From sequence record MT446423.1: a stretch of 64,000 nucleotides of DNA; one strand, 5' to 3'. A program made the position numbers and the translations under genes. The DNA is from Escherichia virus TH58. The notes beneath the pieces are model-generated. The model saw only the letters and a list, made by a program, of their open reading frames with translations, was not told the DNA's origin and ran no database searches. Below, piece after piece: positions 3,469 to 56,994 of this stretch (within the stretch, counting starts at the first letter, position 1; every line of letters begins with the position of its first letter).

Positions 3469-3738
3469 ATGACTAAAGCACGTTTCTTACGAGATACTTT
3501 AAAAGTTCTGGAAGCTGAAGCAGTTAAGTTAGTAGAAAAATATGGTGCAAAAGTTAATGGTAATGCCTTCAACAAAGTATGGATGAAAGTTGATTCTGAA
3601 GCTCGAGCTAAAGGTTATTGGGCCACTGATAAACTTGCATCATTCAAAAACAAAGACGGCTCCCCAGCATACGTCCAAGAAGGTATGCCTAATTGGCAAA
3701 ATATTTTGAAAACTTACATCGAAATTGCACAGAAATAA
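3469..3738 (+). CDS. hypothetical early protein inserted between genes 24 and 23
   Basis: 89-aa ORF with GAGGAG RBS, own early promoter, opposite strand to flanking late genes. Confidence 0.45.
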   Translation: MTKARFLRDTLKVLEAEAVKLVEKYGAKVNGNAFNKVWMKVDSEARAKGYWATDKLASFKNKDGSPAYVQEGMPNWQNILKTYIEIAQK

Positions 3739-38520: not shown

Positions 38521-38522
38521 TA

Positions 38523-38554
38523 GCCCCTTCCGAAAGGTTGGGGCTTTTTTTTTT
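38523..38554 (+). terminator. intrinsic terminator GCCCCTTCC-GAAA-GGTTGGGGC plus T10
   Basis: GNRA-loop hairpin followed by a 10-nt T-run; one of four near-identical copies. Confidence 0.75.
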
Positions 38555-38596: not shown

Positions 38597-39061
38597 ATGA
38601 AATCATACGCTGAATTTTTGACTGAACAATCTAGTTCAGATGTAAAAGCCGCTGCGATTGCAGCAATTCGAGCAGGTAAATATTCTTACAAAGACGCCTC
38701 TGATGAAGAACGTTTCCGTTTTATTAGAGATTTTAAAGCCGAAGGTTTTACTAATGCTAATACTGTTAGCCGAGTTTTTAAAAGCCTAGCTGCATCAGGT
38801 GAATTGTTCCAGAAAGCTACAGGTAAAGCACCTGCGCCAAAAGCGGACCCTAAAGCCGCTCAAGAAAAAAATATCGCCAAAGGAATTATTTCTAAGTATG
38901 AAGCAATTCTTAAAGAGCTTTTAGTAATCAAATCAGAAGGCCAGAAACTGGCACGAGCACATAGCTTCAAAGATAATCCTCACGCTCATAGCCTTGAGTA
39001 TGTTGAAGATATCCAAAAACTTATTAAAGACCGTATCTGGTCTGCTAAACAAATTAAATAA
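38597..39061 (+). CDS. internal-protein-like protein with capsid-targeting sequence
   Basis: N-terminus MKSYAEFLTE resembles the targeting motif; 154 aa. Confidence 0.5.
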   Translation: MKSYAEFLTEQSSSDVKAAAIAAIRAGKYSYKDASDEERFRFIRDFKAEGFTNANTVSRVFKSLAASGELFQKATGKAPAPKADPKAAQEKNIAKGIISKYEAILKELLVIKSEGQKLARAHSFKDNPHAHSLEYVEDIQKLIKDRIWSAKQIK

Positions 39062-39067
39062 TAGAAT

Positions 39068-39095
39068 GCCCCTTCCTTACGGTTGGGGCTTTTTG
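39068..39095 (+). terminator. intrinsic terminator GCCCCTTCC-TTAC-GGTTGGGGC plus T-run
   Basis: Near-identical copy of the 38523 terminator. Confidence 0.7.
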
Positions 39096-39127
39096 GTATC
39101 TAGGGCATAAAAATATTTCATAAAGAT

Positions 39128-42805: not shown

Positions 42806-42836
42806 GTTTACAACAAGATAGGGCTATGTTATAGTA
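42806..42836 (+). promoter_or_regulatory. early promoter cassette (GTTTAC ... TGTTATAGTA) with inverted repeat
   Basis: GATAGGGCT / AGTCCTATC arms around the -10. Confidence 0.5.
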
Positions 42837-42863
42837 GTCCTATCAAATTAAATGGAGTCCACA

Positions 42864-44100: not shown

Positions 44101-44131
44101 GTTTACAACATGATAGGACTATGTTATAGTA
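44101..44131 (+). promoter_or_regulatory. early promoter cassette (GTTTAC ... TGTTATAGTA) with inverted repeat
   Basis: ATAGGACT / AGTCCTAT arms around the -10. Confidence 0.5.
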
Positions 44132-44158
44132 GTCCTATTAAAACATGAGGAGAATATT

Positions 44159-52537: not shown

Positions 52538-52746
52538 ATATACATTATCCGCATCCATATGACCCAAAGAATAAGGCAGTAATTATTCGACAATGGGAAC
52601 GCATTTGTCGTACCAAATGTCCAATTAATAGTCCACATGATGTAGATAAAGACTACATCGGAACATTCGTTGAATATACCTTTATTGATAAGAAAGGTCG
52701 TAAACAGCATGTAGAAGAATACTGCTTAAAGGTGACATGGTTATGA
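52534..52746 (+). CDS. hypothetical small protein (tk.3 position)
   Basis: About 70 aa from MNIHYPHPYD. Confidence 0.35.
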   Translation: MNIHYPHPYDPKNKAVIIRQWERICRTKCPINSPHDVDKDYIGTFVEYTFIDKKGRKQHVEEYCLKVTWL

Positions 52747-52928
52747 GTTTAAGCAAAGAACAAAAAGACAAACTCTTTTCTCTTATCCACGAAGTTATGG
52801 ATAAAAACAGTGAATTGGAAAAAGTTTGTGATGAATGCGGTCCTTTTAATGCAAACGAGTACGAAGAACTTTCTAAAGAATTCGATAATAAAGAACAAGA
52901 ACTTATTAATTATATAAATTCCTTATGA
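52737..52928 (+). CDS. hypothetical small acidic protein (tk.2 position)
   Basis: 63 aa; resembles the next ORF. Confidence 0.35.
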   Translation: MVMSLSKEQKDKLFSLIHEVMDKNSELEKVCDECGPFNANEYEELSKEFDNKEQELINYINSL

Positions 52929-53122
52929 TTACTCGCGAACAAAAGAACGAAATATTATTTTTAGTTGGTGAAATTATTAGTTTAGAAAAGGATTTGTCTT
53001 TTGAATTATCTTCTGATTATGGAGATGCCGAAACATATTACGAATTAGTAAAATCTATCGATAAAGCTGAAAATGATTTAGAAACATATTTAGAAAATTT
53101 AACTAAGGACTCTTATGGCTAG
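52925..53122 (+). CDS. hypothetical small acidic protein (tk.1 position)
   Basis: 65 aa. Confidence 0.35.
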   Translation: MITREQKNEILFLVGEIISLEKDLSFELSSDYGDAETYYELVKSIDKAENDLETYLENLTKDSYG

Positions 53123-53723: not shown

Positions 53724-53936
53724 ATGCAGCAATTAAACGAAAGACAACTTCGTAATCTTACTGTAACCCAATTGGATGAAATCCGAAGAGAATTAGGACA
53801 TTCTATTTCTCATTTAAACGAGGATATCCGTCAAACTGGTTCTAAAGCTGATTATACACGCAAGCGCAAGCTGGAAAAATACCTCACAGATGTTAAGGCC
53901 GTCCAAAGGCGAAAAATAAATACTGGCCAAAATTAA
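53724..53936 (+). CDS. hypothetical protein
   Basis: 70-aa ORF between tk and rI. Confidence 0.4.
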
Positions 53937-53948
53937 CAGGAGGCCTAT

Positions 53949-54252
53949 ATGGCCTTAAGAGCGATAGCTGTCATGGCGATGCTGGGGTTTTTTTGCAGCA
54001 ACAACTCCTATCGTTGGTACTGCACATATTGACCCATATTTTGATAACTTTATGGAATCAGGGATTAAAAACGTATATACTTTGTTTGAAATTCAAAATG
54101 TCGAGAATTCTGAAAAATTCTATAAGTATATGGCAAAGCATTACAAAAATAGCCCCTGTGATGATGCATTTGAATGTCATGAACAAGGCATAAAAACTGC
54201 CAGACAATTTGCCGAGTTCATGAAAATAAAATTAGAGCCTACATCTATCTAA
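53949..54252 (+). pseudogene. rI: rI lysis-inhibition regulator (antiholin), interrupted by a +1 frameshift in a T7 tract
   Basis: AGGAGG RBS and ATG 53949 give MALRAIAVMAMLGFF then stop at 54030; the RI-like periplasmic domain (DPYFDNFMESGIK...KIKLEPTSI) continues in the +1 frame to 54252; T7 at 53988-53994. Confidence 0.6.
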
Positions 54253-54259
54253 TTTACCT

Positions 54260-54287
54260 GCCCCTTCCGAAAGGTTGGGGCTTTTTG
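54260..54287 (+). terminator. intrinsic terminator GCCCCTTCC-GAAA-GGTTGGGGC plus T-run
   Basis: Copy 3 of the repeated terminator, directly after rI. Confidence 0.7.
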
Positions 54288-54295
54288 TATAAATA
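54288..54295 (+). promoter_or_regulatory. late promoter TATAAATA
   Basis: Perfect TATAAATA 25 nt upstream of ORF 54320. Confidence 0.5.
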
Positions 54296-54319
54296 TCCTT
54301 GTAAACTAAGAGAGGATAT

Positions 54320-54877
54320 ATGAAATTTTTAAAATATGTAAGTTGGGTTGTTCTTGTTCCTATAGATTGGATCGCAGCGATTTTAGCAATTATTCTAGCG
54401 CCATTTGTAGTTCCATTCCATAGTGAAAAAACCGGTAAACTACCTTATGGCTTTAACTGGATGATGACTTACGATAATCCTATCGATGGTGACCGCGGCC
54501 ATGTTGAACGTTGGTCTAAAATACGTAAAATTCCTGTTATAGGTAAATATGCTCAACGCGTAGCTTGGCTATGGCGCAACAAAGCATATAATTTTTCGTA
54601 TCATGTTTTAGGTCGCGAAGCTTCATCAGAATGGCATTATAAAGGCAACGCCGAAACTAAATCTGGATCTCCTGATCCAGCACATCATGGATATCTTTTA
54701 GTTTGGAACGAGTCGGCATGGGGATTATTCGCTGCTATACCTTATCTTAAGGTTGGTGGTATTACATTTTATCTGCGTGTTTACTGTGGTTGGAAACTTA
54801 AGAGTCTTTTGAGTCGTCCTATTCCACGCGCAATGCTTTCATTCCATATCAACCCTTTACGATATTACAAAAACTAA
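54320..54877 (+). CDS. membrane protein
   Basis: 185 aa with N-terminal TM helix, Trp/Tyr-rich; late promoter upstream. Confidence 0.45.
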   Translation: MKFLKYVSWVVLVPIDWIAAILAIILAPFVVPFHSEKTGKLPYGFNWMMTYDNPIDGDRGHVERWSKIRKIPVIGKYAQRVAWLWRNKAYNFSYHVLGREASSEWHYKGNAETKSGSPDPAHHGYLLVWNESAWGLFAAIPYLKVGGITFYLRVYCGWKLKSLLSRPIPRAMLSFHINPLRYYKN

Positions 54878-54882
54878 TCAAA

Positions 54883-54910
54883 GCCCCTTCCGAAAGGTTG
54901 GGGCTTTTTG
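54883..54910 (+). terminator. intrinsic terminator GCCCCTTCC-GAAA-GGTTGGGGC plus T-run
   Basis: Copy 4 of the repeated terminator. Confidence 0.7.
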
Positions 54911-54920
54911 GCATCTATCA

Positions 54921-54950
54921 GTTTACTTCTCCTCAGGTTGTGTTATAGTA
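54921..54950 (+). promoter_or_regulatory. early promoter cassette (GTTTAC ... TGTTATAGTA) with CTCCTC / GAGGAG inverted repeat
   Basis: 3' arm GAGGAG (54965-54970) is the RBS of ORF 54977. Confidence 0.5.
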
Positions 54951-54976
54951 GTCCTTACTTAATAGAGGAGAATGTT

Positions 54977-55156
54977 ATGACACGTAAAGAAAAAATTTCT
55001 AAGTTAATGTTTTTGATTGAAGAGTATGCTAATGCGGTGTCTGATTGGGAAAATGCTCATGGTTGTGAAGATGGAGACATCGACATTAACAGAGCTATGA
55101 AAAAGATGGCTGAAGCCCACACCGAATTGCAAATGTATGTTAACGAGATTATGTGA
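54977..55156 (+). CDS. small acidic protein
   Basis: 59 aa from MTRKEKISKL. Confidence 0.35.
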   Translation: MTRKEKISKLMFLIEEYANAVSDWENAHGCEDGDIDINRAMKKMAEAHTELQMYVNEIM

Positions 55157-55163
55157 GGATATT

Positions 55164-55328
55164 ATGCTTTACGATTATACTGGAAAATCTGAAGACGGTG
55201 TACTTGAACTTTTACCTGAAAGCGCTGAAGATGATATGGTGGTGATATATTGTGTTGGTTGTCAATCAATGCATGATGAAATTTTTAAACGTGAACCAAG
55301 AAACTGTTGGCACAGGAGCATGAGATGA
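55164..55328 (+). CDS. small protein (MLYDYTGKSEDGV family)
   Basis: 54 aa; paralog of 55420 ORF. Confidence 0.35.
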   Translation: MLYDYTGKSEDGVLELLPESAEDDMVVIYCVGCQSMHDEIFKREPRNCWHRSMR

Positions 55329-55420
55329 TTTATTATCTTGAACCTTGGGCTTGGTTAACAATGGCTGTAGGACCTGTTTTAATTGGTTTATTCTTTTCAT
55401 GGTTAGCGAGGAAACTGTAA
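55325..55420 (+). CDS. 31-aa hydrophobic micro-protein
   Basis: MIYYLEPWAWLTMAVGPVLIGLFFSWLARKL; start and stop overlap neighbours. Confidence 0.3.
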   Translation: MIYYLEPWAWLTMAVGPVLIGLFFSWLARKL

Positions 55421-55635
55421 TGTTATATGACCCAAGCGGTTGTTCTGAAGATGGTGTGATTGTTCTGGAGCCTGAGCATCCAGTTGGTGATGTATATCGC
55501 ACCGTTGAAGTATGCGAATGTAATTTCGTTGAAGGTAATACTGGCGGAATTTCCATTGAGCAAGATGATGATGTTATTTACCTGGATGCAAGCCAAGTTG
55601 AAGAGCTTTATCAACATTTAAAACACAATCGGTAG
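55420..55635 (+). CDS. small protein (MLYDPSGCSEDGV family)
   Basis: 71 aa; paralog of 55164 ORF. Confidence 0.35.
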   Translation: MLYDPSGCSEDGVIVLEPEHPVGDVYRTVEVCECNFVEGNTGGISIEQDDDVIYLDASQVEELYQHLKHNR

Positions 55636-55665
55636 TTTACGTTTTGGTAGGACTATGATATAGTA
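55635..55665 (+). promoter_or_regulatory. early promoter cassette (GTTTAC ... TGATATAGTA) with GGTAGGACT / AATCCTACC inverted repeat
   Basis: Family member. Confidence 0.5.
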
Positions 55666-55692
55666 ATCCTACCAAAACAAATGGAGAACAAA

Positions 55693-55803
55693 ATGAAACT
55701 TTTGCTTATCGCTTATGTTGTAGTACAATACAATTATCCGATGTTTACTTATAACATGGTAAACGGCATAGTGAATCTTATTGAAACGAGTATGGTAAAA
55801 TGA
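55693..55803 (+). CDS. 36-aa hydrophobic micro-protein
   Basis: MKLLLIAYVVVQYNYPMF...; GGAG RBS; stop overlaps next ATG. Confidence 0.25.
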   Translation: MKLLLIAYVVVQYNYPMFTYNMVNGIVNLIETSMVK

Positions 55804-55979
55804 CCCGTGAACAAGCTAATAAATTGATGGACCTTATCCATGACTTACGTGAAGCTGATTCAGATTTGAATGATGTAGCTTATCATGCGGTAAATGATAA
55901 CGGAGATTTTTATGAAAATCAGGTTGATGCTTGCCAGAATGCTTTGGTGAATTTTGTTGAAACTTTAATTGGTGAATAA
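55800..55979 (+). CDS. small acidic protein
   Basis: 59 aa from MTREQANKLMDLIHDL. Confidence 0.35.
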   Translation: MTREQANKLMDLIHDLREADSDLNDVAYHAVNDNGDFYENQVDACQNALVNFVETLIGE

Positions 55980-55980
55980 T

Positions 55981-56511
55981 ATGAAAACTGTAATTGAAAC
56001 AACCGAGTTGTTTGGTGATTTATGTATCGAAAAACGTGGTTATGTGTATGTTCTAACACAAGAAGATGATGCTGCTACTATTCTTCCTATGGAACTGGAC
56101 AAGATTTTGAAACTCAATCCACCAGGTCATGCATCTGTAATTAACATCGGTGAAGACCTCCAAGTTCGTTTTTATCATGGACTTTATAGTGGGGTTAATA
56201 TCGAAACTGAAGACGAATGTTTTTCTATTAATAATTGGAAAACATTCGTCACTAAGGTGAAAGAATTAATGGAATCTGAAACAGCCAAAAAGGCCAAACT
56301 TCAATGGGCTAAATGCCGTAATGCTTTTATTACAAATCAGGACCGCCCTGACTATACAACAGTCCTAGGCGTTAATCCTTCTTATGAAGATGGTGATGTC
56401 GTAGTTATTCGTCAAATTGATGACCTTCGTCAACATATCATTACATTAGACAAAGATGAAGCAGTTGCTCTTAAAGCTTATCTTGATTCTATTATCCCGA
56501 CTTTGAAATAA
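55981..56511 (+). CDS. hypothetical protein
   Basis: 176 aa from MKTVIETTEL. Confidence 0.45.
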   Translation: MKTVIETTELFGDLCIEKRGYVYVLTQEDDAATILPMELDKILKLNPPGHASVINIGEDLQVRFYHGLYSGVNIETEDECFSINNWKTFVTKVKELMESETAKKAKLQWAKCRNAFITNQDRPDYTTVLGVNPSYEDGDVVVIRQIDDLRQHIITLDKDEAVALKAYLDSIIPTLK

Positions 56512-56520
56512 GGAATTATT

Positions 56521-56994
56521 ATGATTATCAATGAAAACTCTTGGCACTTTAAAATTTATGCCGCGTTCAATAGTACATGGAATCGCCCTAAAACATTATG
56601 TGCTTATTTTTGGAAAACGTTAATCCCGGTATTGTCTGTTTCAATTATCGGATTTGCGATTTTAGCAGCAGTAACAATCATTGGCCAGGAAATTTTAACT
56701 AAATTCTTTGTTTTTAGCAGTCTATGGACATTAGTTCCAGCCTCAATTGGCGTAGGCATTTTAATGACATCGGTCATGGCTTTTATTTCTGCCGGGTTGA
56801 TAATTGGTCCGTCTTGGTTGTTAGACAAATATAACGACAGAAAATATTATAAAGAAATTGAGTTCATTGCGAAAAACCAAGAACGAATTAAAAATGGACT
56901 TGAGCCTATTGAACGTAAGAAATCATTAATAGGTGAATACCTTAAAGCTCGTAAAGAAAAAGTCTGTCCTACTCTTGAATATAAGGCTAAATGA
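56521..56994 (+). CDS. membrane protein
   Basis: 157 aa with three predicted TM segments. Confidence 0.45.
   Translation: MIINENSWHFKIYAAFNSTWNRPKTLCAYFWKTLIPVLSVSIIGFAILAAVTIIGQEILTKFFVFSSLWTLVPASIGVGILMTSVMAFISAGLIIGPSWLLDKYNDRKYYKEIEFIAKNQERIKNGLEPIERKKSLIGEYLKARKEKVCPTLEYKAK

What the first reader, a model, noticed from the sequence alone, without database searches (positions are those of the whole stretch)
54921..55979. Dense array of micro-ORFs, including two hydrophobic peptides and two paralog pairs
Within 1 kb there are six ORFs of 31-71 aa, each start overlapping the previous stop. Two form a paralog pair (MLYDYTGKSEDGV… and MLYDPSGCSEDGV…) and two are similar acidic proteins (MTRKEK…, MTREQ…). 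Two are 31- and 36-residue hydrophobic peptides that standard annotation would miss. The tk.2/tk.1-position ORFs (52737-53122) look like a comparable acidic pair.
Basis: seen in the sequence. Interest (0 to 1): 0.45.

Follow-up and report, generated by a model that had tools for sequence, protein, structure and literature searches.

The report
T-even phage early micro-gene cassette array
The six tiny ORFs are real and mostly already-catalogued early genes in a known variable region of an RB69-like T-even phage, but one of them, half of the supposed MLYD paralog pair, is a recombination-made chimera rather than a duplicate, so the finding is largely ordinary.

Summary
The window comes from a Mosigvirus (RB69-like T-even phage). 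The finding lies in its variable rI–nrdC.11 early region. All six ORFs exist: 59, 54, 31, 71, 36 and 59 aa. Only 3 of the 5 junctions overlap.

Five ORFs are genuine genes. They have Shine-Dalgarno sites, conserved frames and dN/dS of about 0.04–0.5 against relatives. All belong to catalogued families:
- O1 and O6, plus the tk.2 and tk.1 ORFs: Pfam DUF7438.
- O4: DUF7189.
- O5: T4 MobD.2.
- O3: phrog_12165.

All six are annotated in GenBank relatives, although O3 and O5 are missing from many records.

The "MLYD paralog pair" is not a duplication. O2 fuses the first ~27 codons of the resident DUF7189 gene to the last 28 codons of a DksA/TraR zinc-finger gene. A Gaprivervirus/Dhakavirus-type patch (ZnF 3' end, O3, O4) recombined into the resident gene and created it.

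The ORFs form two early operons. Each is headed by a T4-type early promoter with a stem-loop, which fits the published PeSL cassette. In T4, MobD.3, MobD.4, Tk.1 and Tk.2 proteins are detected by mass spectrometry, and knockdown of mobD.1–mobD.5 and tk.1–tk.4 gives no fitness effect. Biochemical function remains unknown. Interest is low.

The parts
52743..52928 (+). tk.2 ortholog, 61 aa, DUF7438 helical-hairpin family.
   Evidence: Pfam DUF7438 E 3.7e-19. 93% aa identity to T4 Tk.2. It lies in a 358-bp patch that is 97.5% identical to T4 DNA.
52925..53122 (+). tk.1 ortholog, 65 aa, DUF7438.
   Evidence: Pfam DUF7438 E 5.3e-15. 97% aa identity to T4 Tk.1.
54260..54287 (+). Intrinsic-terminator hairpin, copy 1 of an exact 28-nt repeat.
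   Evidence: -15.1 kcal/mol, followed by a T run.
54288..54295 (+). TATAAATA, a match to the T4 late-promoter consensus, just upstream of the DUF7338 gene.
   Evidence: Sequence. The consensus is the one quoted in the OL960576 annotation notes.
54320..54877 (+). DUF7338 gene, 185 aa. It is an insertion/deletion cassette bounded by the two terminator copies.
   Evidence: Pfam E 7e-62. Absent from SA79RD, ST2 and PhAPEC2, which carry one terminator copy. Present in NHEP29, which carries two.
54883..54910 (+). Terminator hairpin, copy 2. It is the stem-loop part of the first PeSL-like element.
   Evidence: -17.9 kcal/mol, z -3.1. Annotated as a terminator in OL960576.
54921..54949 (+). T4-type early promoter, GTTTAC-N14-TGtTATAGT.
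   Evidence: The homologous site is annotated as an early promoter in OL960576.
54977..55156 (+). O1, 59 aa, DUF7438. Ortholog of RB69 MobD.2a; T4 mobD.2a is a frameshifted copy.
   Evidence: and 46 (dN/dS 0.04-0.42).
55164..55328 (+). O2, 54 aa. A chimeric ORF: the resident DUF7189 N-terminus (aa 1-27) fused to the C-terminal 28 aa of a DksA/TraR-type zinc-finger gene.
   Evidence: The chimera junction is present in 20 of 195 matching phage records.
55242..55631 (+). Gaprivervirus/Dhakavirus-type recombination patch, comprising the ZnF 3' end, O3 and most of O4.
   Evidence: 92% identity to VR20. ST2-type homology stops at 55253 and resumes at 55594.
55325..55420 (+). O3, a 31-aa predicted single-pass membrane peptide (phrog_12165). 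It always lies immediately upstream of an MLYDP-type DUF7189 gene.
   Evidence: (103 records, 80-100% identity, all full length); (dN/dS 0.12-0.36).
55420..55635 (+). O4, 71 aa, full-length DUF7189.
   Evidence: Pfam E 4.4e-31. dN/dS 0.16-0.53.
55635..55664 (+). T4-type early promoter, GTTTAC-N15-TGaTATAGT.
   Evidence: Conserved in T4 upstream of mobD.2.
55644..55675 (+). 13-bp stem-loop overlapping the -10 box. It is the stem-loop part of the second PeSL-like element.
   Evidence: -20.3 kcal/mol, z -4.8. Four pairs show compensatory changes across orthologs and paralogs.
55693..55803 (+). O5, 36 aa, ortholog of T4 MobD.2 (phrog_3515; Pfam PF26864 as precomputed for its database homologs). 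Conserved core VQYxxPxFTYNxVN.
   Evidence: 837 records; (dN/dS 0.08-0.27 in most comparisons, and only 3 second-position changes).
55800..55979 (+). O6, 59 aa, DUF7438 (phrog_4859, labelled 'helicase loader' without support). Named Tk.1 in RB69.
   Evidence: AF2 model is a helical hairpin, pLDDT 85.5.
55981..56511 (+). MobD.1 (y05I)-like gene, 176 aa, the next cistron of the second early operon.
   Evidence: Pfam T4_y05I_N and T4_y05I_C. 45% identity to T4 MobD.1.

Best explanation
The finding is a stretch of the rI-nrdC.11 hyperplastic (accessory-gene) region of an RB69-like T-even phage.

Transcription (inferred from consensus matches). Host sigma-70 RNA polymerase reads two early operons right after infection.
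- Operon 1 starts at the promoter at 54921-54949, which follows a terminator hairpin. It encodes O1, O2, O3 and O4.
- Operon 2 starts at the promoter at 55635-55664. Its -10 box sits inside a conserved 13-bp stem-loop. It encodes O5, O6, MobD.1 and the downstream genes.
- Read-through RNA from operon 1 can form the hairpin at its 3' end. RNA started at the second promoter, predicted near 55671, lacks the 5' arm of the stem, so the O5 ribosome-binding site stays free.

Translation (shown in sequence; coupling inferred). Each ORF has its own Shine-Dalgarno site or an overlapping stop/start (ATGA, TAATG), which suggests translational coupling.

Products. Their families are shown; their activities are inferred.
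- Four Rop-like acidic helical hairpins of family DUF7438 (O1, O6, tk.2, tk.1). They probably act by binding other macromolecules.
- A 31-aa membrane peptide (O3), always paired with a DUF7189 protein (O4).
- The MobD.2 micropeptide (O5).

Dispensability. Judging from their T4 counterparts (O3 and O4 have none in T4), these are dispensable accessory genes. Whether they help only in particular hosts is my guess.

Origin of the array (shown by comparison). Gene content was built by cassette recombination.
- A Gaprivervirus/Dhakavirus-type patch (ZnF 3' end, O3, O4) replaced the middle of the resident DUF7189 gene. This created the chimeric O2 and the false 'paralog pair'.
- A DUF7338 gene lies between two exact copies of a 28-nt terminator.
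- The tk.2-tk.1 pair is a T4-type allele in a Mosigvirus backbone.
For: Identity and context. The region is 96-98% identical to Mosigvirus genomes, and the gene order vs-tk-rI-mobD.x-nrdC.11 is annotated there.

Coding status.
- SD cores precede 5 of 6 starts, against a 7.3% background.
- Frames are intact in relatives from Mosigvirus, Tequatrovirus, Gaprivervirus, Dhakavirus, Jiaodavirus and Karamvirus.
- dN/dS is well below 1 for O1, O3, O4, O5 and O6.
- The antisense 96-aa ORF is broken by stops in relatives.

Families.

Chimera.
- O2 aa 27-54 are identical to the C-terminus of VR20_099, which hits zf-dskA_traR at E 5e-9.
- O2 aa 1-27 match the 68-aa ST2-type DUF7189 protein.
- The left junction lies in a GTGAT microhomology.
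- The right junction lies in the conserved DUF7189 3' end and sits at a different place in PhAPEC2.

Promoter and stem-loop elements. They fit the PeSL definition in PMC2839356 and PMC4122927.

Other cassettes. The DUF7338 cassette and terminator repeats. The T4-type tk.2/tk.1 patch.

Expression and dispensability of the T4 orthologs.
- MobD.3, MobD.4, MobD.1, Tk.1 and Tk.2 are detected as RNA and as protein.
- mobD.2 is detected as early RNA only (PMC9697503 supplements).
- mobD.1 to mobD.5 and tk.1 to tk.4 are all 'Not Fit' on knockdown (PMC11879866 supplement 15).

DUF7438 fold. The AF2 model is a helical hairpin with pLDDT 85.5, and the top PDB matches are Rop.
Against: - No protein in the array has an experimentally known function.
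- The structure matches are non-significant (Foldseek E about 1) and generic for helical hairpins.
- The O4 model is unusable, with pLDDT 50.
- Promoters and terminators are consensus matches only. The scan finds as many sigma-70-like sites as in shuffled sequence (28 against 25.8), so their assignment rests on the specific T4 early motif and on conservation.
- The 55644-55675 hairpin has no downstream U-tract, so terminator activity is doubtful.
- There is no protein evidence for the MobD.2 family (protein NA) and none at all for O3.
- The left junction of the O2 patch is not at a PeSL, so that event was not PeSL-mediated.
- O2 may still be translated and could have some function. That cannot be judged, because the 20 carriers are nearly identical.
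Confidence: 0.85

Rival explanations
1. O2 and O4 are a true tandem duplication, two functional DUF7189 paralogs with O3 inserted between them.
For: Both begin MLYD..G.SEDGV and both score above the DUF7189 gathering threshold (35.1 and 107.4 bits against 27). O2 keeps an SD site and an ATGA overlap with O3.
Against: - O2 matches only positions 1-31 of the 68-position profile.
- Its last 28 residues are identical to the tail of a DksA/TraR zinc-finger protein of Gaprivervirus.
- Most Mosigvirus records carry a single 68-aa gene at this site.
- DNA homology switches donor at 55242-55253 and at 55594-55631.
- O2 is shortened by a premature stop in PhAPEC2.
Confidence: 0.05
2. The 31-aa and 36-aa ORFs are not protein genes but chance ORFs or parts of RNA or regulatory elements.
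For: - The T4 omics data give no protein evidence for MobD.2.
- O5 lies directly after a promoter/hairpin, and its DNA is conserved at about 70% to T4.
- Many annotators skip both ORFs.
Against: - O5's frame, start and stop are kept in 12 loci from 4 genera. Its core is invariant, and only 3 second-codon-position changes occur against 11-16 at positions 1 and 3.
- O3 is full length in all 103 records, with dN/dS 0.12-0.36.
- Both have SD cores.
- There is no Rfam match.
Confidence: 0.07
3. O5 (MobD.2) acts mainly as a translated leader ORF. Its translation would set expression of the downstream coupled cistrons (O6 and MobD.1 here, MobD.1 in T4), and the peptide would not be an effector.
For: - In Mosigvirus and T4 it is the first cistron after the early promoter.
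- Its stop overlaps the next start in both.
- The peptide is not detected by mass spectrometry.
Against: - Strong amino-acid conservation of an internal polar/aromatic motif (QYxxPxFTYNxVN) across genera is not needed for a simple coupling ORF.
- In Karamvirus and Jiaodavirus the homolog sits mid-operon, ahead of different genes.
Confidence: 0.15
4. O3 with O4, or O5 with O6, form two-component membrane/soluble modules such as a toxin-antitoxin-like, lysis-control or superinfection-exclusion pair.
For: - O3 is always followed immediately by an MLYDP-type DUF7189 gene, overlapping or abutting it, in 9 of 9 loci.
- The locus is next to rI, the lysis-inhibition gene.
- O3 is a predicted membrane helix.
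Against: - No homology to any characterised holin, antiholin, Imm/Sp or toxin family.
- DUF7189 also occurs without O3, as in the ST2 type.
- O5 occurs without O6 in T4.
Confidence: 0.1

Closest known systems
Phage T4 mobD.1-mobD.5 and tk.1-tk.3 small early ORFs, as annotated in NC_000866
   Same: - Same locus, between rI and nrdC.11 and upstream of tk.
- Same families: DUF7438 includes T4 Tk.1, Tk.2, MobD.3, MobD.4 and the MobD.2a remnant; O5 is MobD.2; the next gene is MobD.1.
- Same T4-type early promoter ahead of mobD.2.
- In T4 these genes are expressed early and are dispensable.
   Different: - T4 has no O3, no DUF7189 gene and no O2.
- T4 has no DUF7438 gene between mobD.2 and mobD.1.
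- T4's O1 ortholog (mobD.2a) is frameshifted.
- T4 carries mobD.5 and the MobD homing endonuclease here.
PeSL (promoter-early stem-loop) mobile regulatory cassettes of T4-type phages (Arbiol et al. 2010, PMC2839356; Comeau et al. 2014, PMC4122927)
   Same: - Composite of a stem-loop, a sigma-70-type early promoter (TTTACW-N17-TAYWAT in the T4/PST group), an SD site and an ATG.
- Repeated copies in a hyperplastic region.
- Indels between close relatives that coincide with the repeats, such as the DUF7338 cassette and the PhAPEC2 right junction.
   Different: - Promoter and terminator activity and mini-circle formation were not tested here.
- The recombination that made O2 used a 5-nt microhomology inside coding sequence on the left and gene homology on the right, not PeSLs.
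- The DUF7338 cassette is bounded by terminators and carries a late-type promoter rather than an early one.
Gaprivervirus/Dhakavirus ZnF-O3-DUF7189 module (for example VR20_099, an unannotated 31-aa ORF, and VR20_098)
   Same: Window 55242-55631 is 92% identical in DNA to this module. O3 and O4 are its orthologs.
   Different: In the window only the last 28 codons of the zinc-finger gene survive, fused in frame to a resident gene fragment. The first CxxC pair is lost.
Rop/Rom-type helical-hairpin proteins and the phage anti-activator Aqs1 (fold resemblance only)
   Same: The predicted DUF7438 fold is two antiparallel helices of about 27 and 24 residues. TM-scores are 0.8-0.86 to Rop and 0.68 to Aqs1.
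   Different: - No significant sequence or Foldseek E-value (about 1).
- The hairpin fold is generic.
- There is no evidence of RNA binding or anti-activator activity.

Membership tests
Pfam DUF7438 (PF24219) | Whole-protein HMM score above the gathering cut-off (25 bits), covering the 57-position profile. | tested here: met
   O1 61 bits, O6 59.8, tk.2-position ORF 69.3, tk.1-position ORF 56. All cover profile positions 1-3 to 57.
Pfam DUF7189 (PF23819), O4 | Score above 27 bits over the full 68-position profile. | tested here: met
   107.4 bits, profile 1-68.
Pfam DUF7189 (PF23819), O2 | Full-length match to the 68-position profile. | tested here: not met
   35.1 bits, but only profile positions 1-31. 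The remainder of O2 is identical to a zinc-finger gene tail.
DksA/TraR C4 zinc finger (PF01258), O2 | Two CxxC pairs that bind zinc, and an HMM match. | tested here: not met
   O2 keeps only the second CxxC (CVGC) and has no zf-dskA_traR hit at E<=1. The intact VR20 protein hits at E 4.9e-9.
T4 MobD.2 family (phrog_3515; Pfam PF26864 as precomputed for database homologs), O5 | Sequence match to the family profile, and synteny upstream of MobD.1 and downstream of an early promoter. | tested here: met
   phrog_3515 E 1e-20. 65% identity to T4 MobD.2. PF26864 is listed for the homologs. That model is not in the local Pfam copy, so it was not scored directly.
PeSL cassette | Sigma-70-like early promoter with T4-group consensus TTTACW-N17-TAYWAT. 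| tested here: met
   GTTTACT-N-TATAGT at 54921-54949 and GTTTACG-N-TATAGT at 55635-55664, both with an extended -10 TG.
PeSL cassette | Stable stem-loop upstream of, or overlapping, the promoter boxes. | tested here: met
   The hairpin at 54883-54910 lies upstream of the -35 box. The hairpin at 55644-55675 lies between the boxes and overlaps -10. Their z-scores are -3.1 and -4.8. Four covarying pairs.
PeSL cassette | Association with indels or replacements between closely related phages in a hyperplastic region. | tested here: met
   The DUF7338 indel is bounded by exact terminator repeats. The PhAPEC2 patch ends at the PeSL. However, the left junction of the O2 patch is not at a PeSL.
PeSL cassette | Demonstrated promoter and terminator activity, and mini-circle formation by recombination between copies. 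| not testable with these tools
   This needs reporter fusions and inverse PCR, as done in PMC2839356.
Helicase loader (the label attached to phrog_4859 and to O6 homologs in several GenBank records) | Homology to a known loader family such as T4 gp59 or DnaC/IstB-type. | tested here: not met
   O6 hits only DUF7438 in Pfam and nothing relevant in NCBIfam. It is a 59-aa helical hairpin. The label appears unsupported.

The most novel reading that the evidence does not exclude
The DUF7438 hairpins (four copies here and five or six in T4) and the MobD.2 micropeptide might be a set of interchangeable early effectors that each neutralise a particular host factor or defence. On this reading they are exchanged between T-even genera as ready-to-express cassettes. 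The T4-type tk.2-tk.1 patch, 97.5% identical to T4 inside a Mosigvirus backbone, and the Gaprivervirus/Dhakavirus-type O3-O4 patch would then be recent adaptive acquisitions and not neutral mosaicism.
Probability: 0.2. Interest if true: 0.55.

Novelty: already known. Interest (0 to 1): 0.17.

Why it matters
The result mainly serves as a calibration case. Dense arrays of overlapping 30-70-aa ORFs in T-even early regions are genuine, expressed accessory genes. They sit in known plastic regions and are already in Pfam, PHROGs and GenBank.

Three modest points are useful:
- Apparent paralog pairs in such regions can be recombination scars. O2 is an in-frame fusion of two unrelated gene fragments, so family counts and 'duplication' calls need junction checks.
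- The MobD.2-type and O3-type micropeptides are conserved under purifying selection, yet many deposited genomes omit them.
- Several propagated product names are unsupported and should not be used for inference. Examples are 'helicase loader' for O6 homologs and 'molybdopterin-guanine dinucleotide biosynthesis protein MobD' for mobD.4.

If the hairpin family turned out to be anti-defence effectors, the locus would become a convenient natural library of variants.

Tried and rejected
- AlphaFold model of O4 (DUF7189), built from 8 sequences: pLDDT 50, so no fold search was run.
- Foldseek of the DUF7438 model against PDB and BFVD: only generic hairpins (Rop, Aqs1, E about 1) and uncharacterised phage proteins.
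- Profile search of DUF7438 against 1.84 billion representatives: 15 clusters, all 31-67 aa. No fusions gave a functional hint.
- NCBIfam: nothing meaningful.
- Rfam on 53900-56700: no match.
- Literature searches for DUF7438, DUF7189, mobD.x and tk.x: no functional papers.
- The search for related loci with MobD.1 in IMG/VR: one near-identical locus only.
- hhalign of DUF7189 against MobD.1: a 26-column match to the MobD.1 N-domain at 78% probability. I judged this too weak to claim homology.
- Antisense ORF 55266-55556: considered and rejected, because it is interrupted by stops in relatives.
- The 55644-55675 hairpin as a canonical intrinsic terminator: considered and rejected, because no U-tract follows it.
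Full report
**What the window is**

The 2.3 kb around the finding matches 248 phage records. The best are 96-98% identical Mosigvirus (RB69-like) genomes. In those records the + strand gene order is vs.1, vs, tk.4 to tk.2, tk, rI.1, rI, small ORFs, a MobD.1-like gene, a membrane protein, and an nrdC.11-like nucleotidyltransferase. This corresponds to the T4 region from vs to nrdC.11. In the PeSL literature, such blocks of small variable ORFs between conserved modules in T4-type genomes are called hyperplastic regions.

**Checking the observation**

The six ORFs are present:

| ORF | Coordinates | Length |
|---|---|---|
| O1 | 54977-55156 | 59 aa |
| O2 | 55164-55328 | 54 aa |
| O3 | 55325-55420 | 31 aa |
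| O4 | 55420-55635 | 71 aa |
| O5 | 55693-55803 | 36 aa |
| O6 | 55800-55979 | 59 aa |

- Only three junctions overlap: ATGA, TAATG and ATGA.
- O1/O2 have a 7-nt spacer. O4/O5 are separated by 57 nt that hold a promoter and a hairpin.
- Coordinate 54921 is the -35 hexamer of a promoter.
- Five of six starts are preceded by a GGAG/GAGG/AGGA core, against 7.3% of all + strand ATGs.
- O3 is strongly hydrophobic, with a Kyte-Doolittle 19-residue maximum of 1.76. O5 is moderately hydrophobic, at 1.04.

**Are they genes?**

I extracted homologs from 19 related loci in six genera and compared them.
- O1, O3, O4, O5 and O6 keep their start, frame and stop.
- dN/dS against the window copy is 0.04-0.42 for O1, 0.12-0.36 for O3 and 0.16-0.53 for O4. 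It is 0.08-0.27 for O5, with one outlier, and 0-0.31 for O6.
- O5 keeps an invariant core, VQYxxPxFTYNxVN, from Mosigvirus to Karamvirus. Only 3 second-codon-position differences occur, against 11-16 at positions 1 and 3.
- By tblastn, O5 is found in 837 phage records and O3 in 103, all of the latter full length.
- The 96-aa antisense ORF at 55266-55556 is interrupted in relatives and is spurious.
- There is no Rfam match.

**Families**

- O1, O6 and the two ORFs upstream of tk all belong to Pfam DUF7438 (E 1e-15 to 4e-19).
- T4 Tk.1, Tk.2, MobD.3 and MobD.4 are also members, as is the N-terminal remnant MobD.2a.
- O4 is a full-length DUF7189 protein.
- O5 is the ortholog of T4 MobD.2 (phrog_3515). 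Its database homologs carry Pfam PF26864.
- O3 is phrog_12165.
- All six ORFs are annotated as CDS in OL960576, as SA79RD_099 to SA79RD_104.
- O3 is unannotated in JS10, dhaeg, IME281 and PSD2002. O5 is unannotated in many Tequatrovirus, Jiaodavirus and Karamvirus records.

**The MLYD 'paralog pair' is a recombination product**

- Most Mosigvirus relatives (ST2, NHEP29, mar005P1) have one 68-aa DUF7189 gene where the window has O2, O3 and O4.
- Gaprivervirus and Dhakavirus phages have a module made of an 85-aa DksA/TraR zinc-finger gene, O3 and a DUF7189 gene.
- In the window, ST2-type DNA homology runs to 55253 and resumes at 55594. VR20-type homology (92%) covers 55242-55631.
- O2 residues 1-27 are the resident DUF7189 N-terminus. 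Residues 27-54 are identical to the last 28 residues of the zinc-finger protein and keep only its second CxxC.
- The left junction lies in a GTGAT microhomology.
- The right junction lies in the conserved 3' end of DUF7189. In PhAPEC2 it sits further downstream, at the stop codon and promoter element.
- The junction is present in 20 of 195 matching records.
- In PhAPEC2, O2 is shortened to 47 aa by a premature stop and O6 is destroyed by a deletion of about 65 nt.

O2 is best read as an in-frame scar. It may matter only because it carries ribosomes, and the O3 Shine-Dalgarno site, up to the ATGA overlap. That last point is my inference.

**Regulatory architecture**

Two T4-type early promoters (GTTTAC, spacer, TGnTATAGT) lie at 54921-54949 and 55635-55664.
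- The first follows a terminator hairpin at 54883-54910 (-17.9 kcal/mol).
- The second has a 13-bp stem-loop at 55644-55675 that overlaps its -10 box (-20.3 kcal/mol, z -4.8).
- The same promoter-hairpin design recurs at 42806 and 44101 in the window and upstream of mobD.2 in T4. Four stem pairs show compensatory changes.
- This matches the published definition of PeSL cassettes, including the subclasses in which the stem-loop is upstream of -35 or overlaps -10.

**Further mosaic events nearby**

- The DUF7338 gene (54320-54877) is flanked by exact 28-nt copies of the terminator and preceded by TATAAATA, the T4 late-promoter consensus. Relatives with one terminator copy lack the gene.
- The same terminator flanks an internal-protein-like gene at 38597-39061.
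- Window 52749-53106 (tk.2 plus tk.1) is 97.5% identical to T4 DNA. Its flanks are 78-80% identical to T4 and 98% identical to Mosigvirus SA79RD, so it is a T4-type cassette in a Mosigvirus backbone.
- Hybrid tk.2/tk.1 genes exist in other phages (P0026 and P0047).

**What the proteins may do**

- The DUF7438 model is a confident two-helix hairpin (pLDDT 85.5).
- It resembles Rop and the phage protein Aqs1 only at a generic level (E about 1).
- BFVD neighbours are all uncharacterised.
- The family has only 15 clusters among 1.84 billion representatives. All are 31-67 aa and none are fusions.
- The O4 model failed.

In T4, the following is known from published supplements:
- MobD.1, MobD.3, MobD.4, Tk.1 and Tk.2 are detected as early RNA and by mass spectrometry.
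- mobD.2, mobD.2a and mobD.5 are early RNAs without protein detection (PMC9697503 supplements).
- CRISPRi-ART knockdown of mobD.1 to mobD.5 and tk.1 to tk.4 gives no fitness effect (PMC11879866 supplement 15).

The most likely reading is a set of early, dispensable small proteins that may be useful only in some hosts. Any more specific role, such as anti-defence or host takeover, is conjecture.

**Verdict**

The main correction is that O2 is a chimera and not a paralog. The "helicase loader" label on O6 homologs is not supported.

Noticed in passing
window 53949-54252 (T run at about 53988-53994): The rI lysis-inhibition gene carries one extra T in a T6 run relative to SA79RD, NHEP29 and ST2. 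This breaks the frame after about 14 codons, leaving a 27-aa stub and a separate 66-aa ORF. It is either a genuine rI (rapid-lysis) mutant or a homopolymer sequencing error.
   Followed up: partly
L003 (T4 NC_000866) 3550-3666, minus strand; L019:1267-1440: T4 mobD.2a (38 aa) is a frameshifted remnant of the O1 ortholog. Tequatrovirus SH-1 has the intact 57-aa gene, and the T4 C-terminal part continues in another frame.
   Followed up: partly
window 52749-53106: The tk.2 and tk.1 genes are 97.5% identical to T4 DNA. The flanking tk.4 and tk genes are 78-80% identical to T4 and 98% identical to Mosigvirus SA79RD. This is a Tequatrovirus-type cassette swapped into a Mosigvirus backbone, and the near-invariant tk.3 gene probably served as the left homology arm.
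   Followed up: yes
window 54260-54287, 54883-54910, 38522-38549 and about 39068-39102: An exact 28-nt terminator (GCCCCTTCCGAAAGGTTGGGGCTTTTTG) is repeated. One pair flanks the DUF7338 gene, which has a TATAAATA late-promoter match at 54288-54295. Another pair flanks an internal-protein-like gene at 38597-39061.
   Followed up: partly
proteins P0026 and P0047: Some phages, for example UFV-AREG1, carry a single hybrid DUF7438 gene with a tk.2-type N-terminus and a tk.1-type C-terminus. This indicates deletion by recombination between the adjacent paralogs.
   Followed up: no
window 42806-42845 and 44101-44140: Two more early promoters with an embedded stem-loop (GTTTAC...ATAGGxCTATGTTATAGTAGTCCTAT) lie ahead of small ORFs. 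They are near-copies of each other and relatives of the 55635 element.
   Followed up: partly
L003 (T4 RefSeq) mobD.4; L005 (UPEC07); phrog_4859: Several product names look like propagated errors. mobD.4 and its homologs are called 'molybdopterin-guanine dinucleotide biosynthesis protein MobD', apparently from the gene-name coincidence. In UPEC07, a MobD.1 homolog is called 'thymidine kinase' and a 78-aa ORF 'valyl-tRNA synthetase modifier'. O6 homologs are called 'helicase loader'.
   Followed up: partly
window 55420-55635 against 55981-56511; L015:2034-2258: The C-terminal beta-hairpin plus helix of DUF7189 (aa 41-66) aligns with MobD.1 N-domain residues 20-45 (hhalign probability 78%). An unannotated 74-aa ORF in Klebsiella phage PKO111 looks intermediate between DUF7189 and the MobD.1 C-domain. 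This hints at a shared small fold.
   Followed up: partly
L016:1483-1590, L017:1489-1596, L015:1489-1587, L014:1492-1602: In Karamvirus and Jiaodavirus the MobD.2-like micro-ORF is unannotated. It sits directly upstream of a DksA-like zinc-finger gene or another small gene rather than MobD.1, so the micropeptide moves independently of its T4 neighbour.
   Followed up: no
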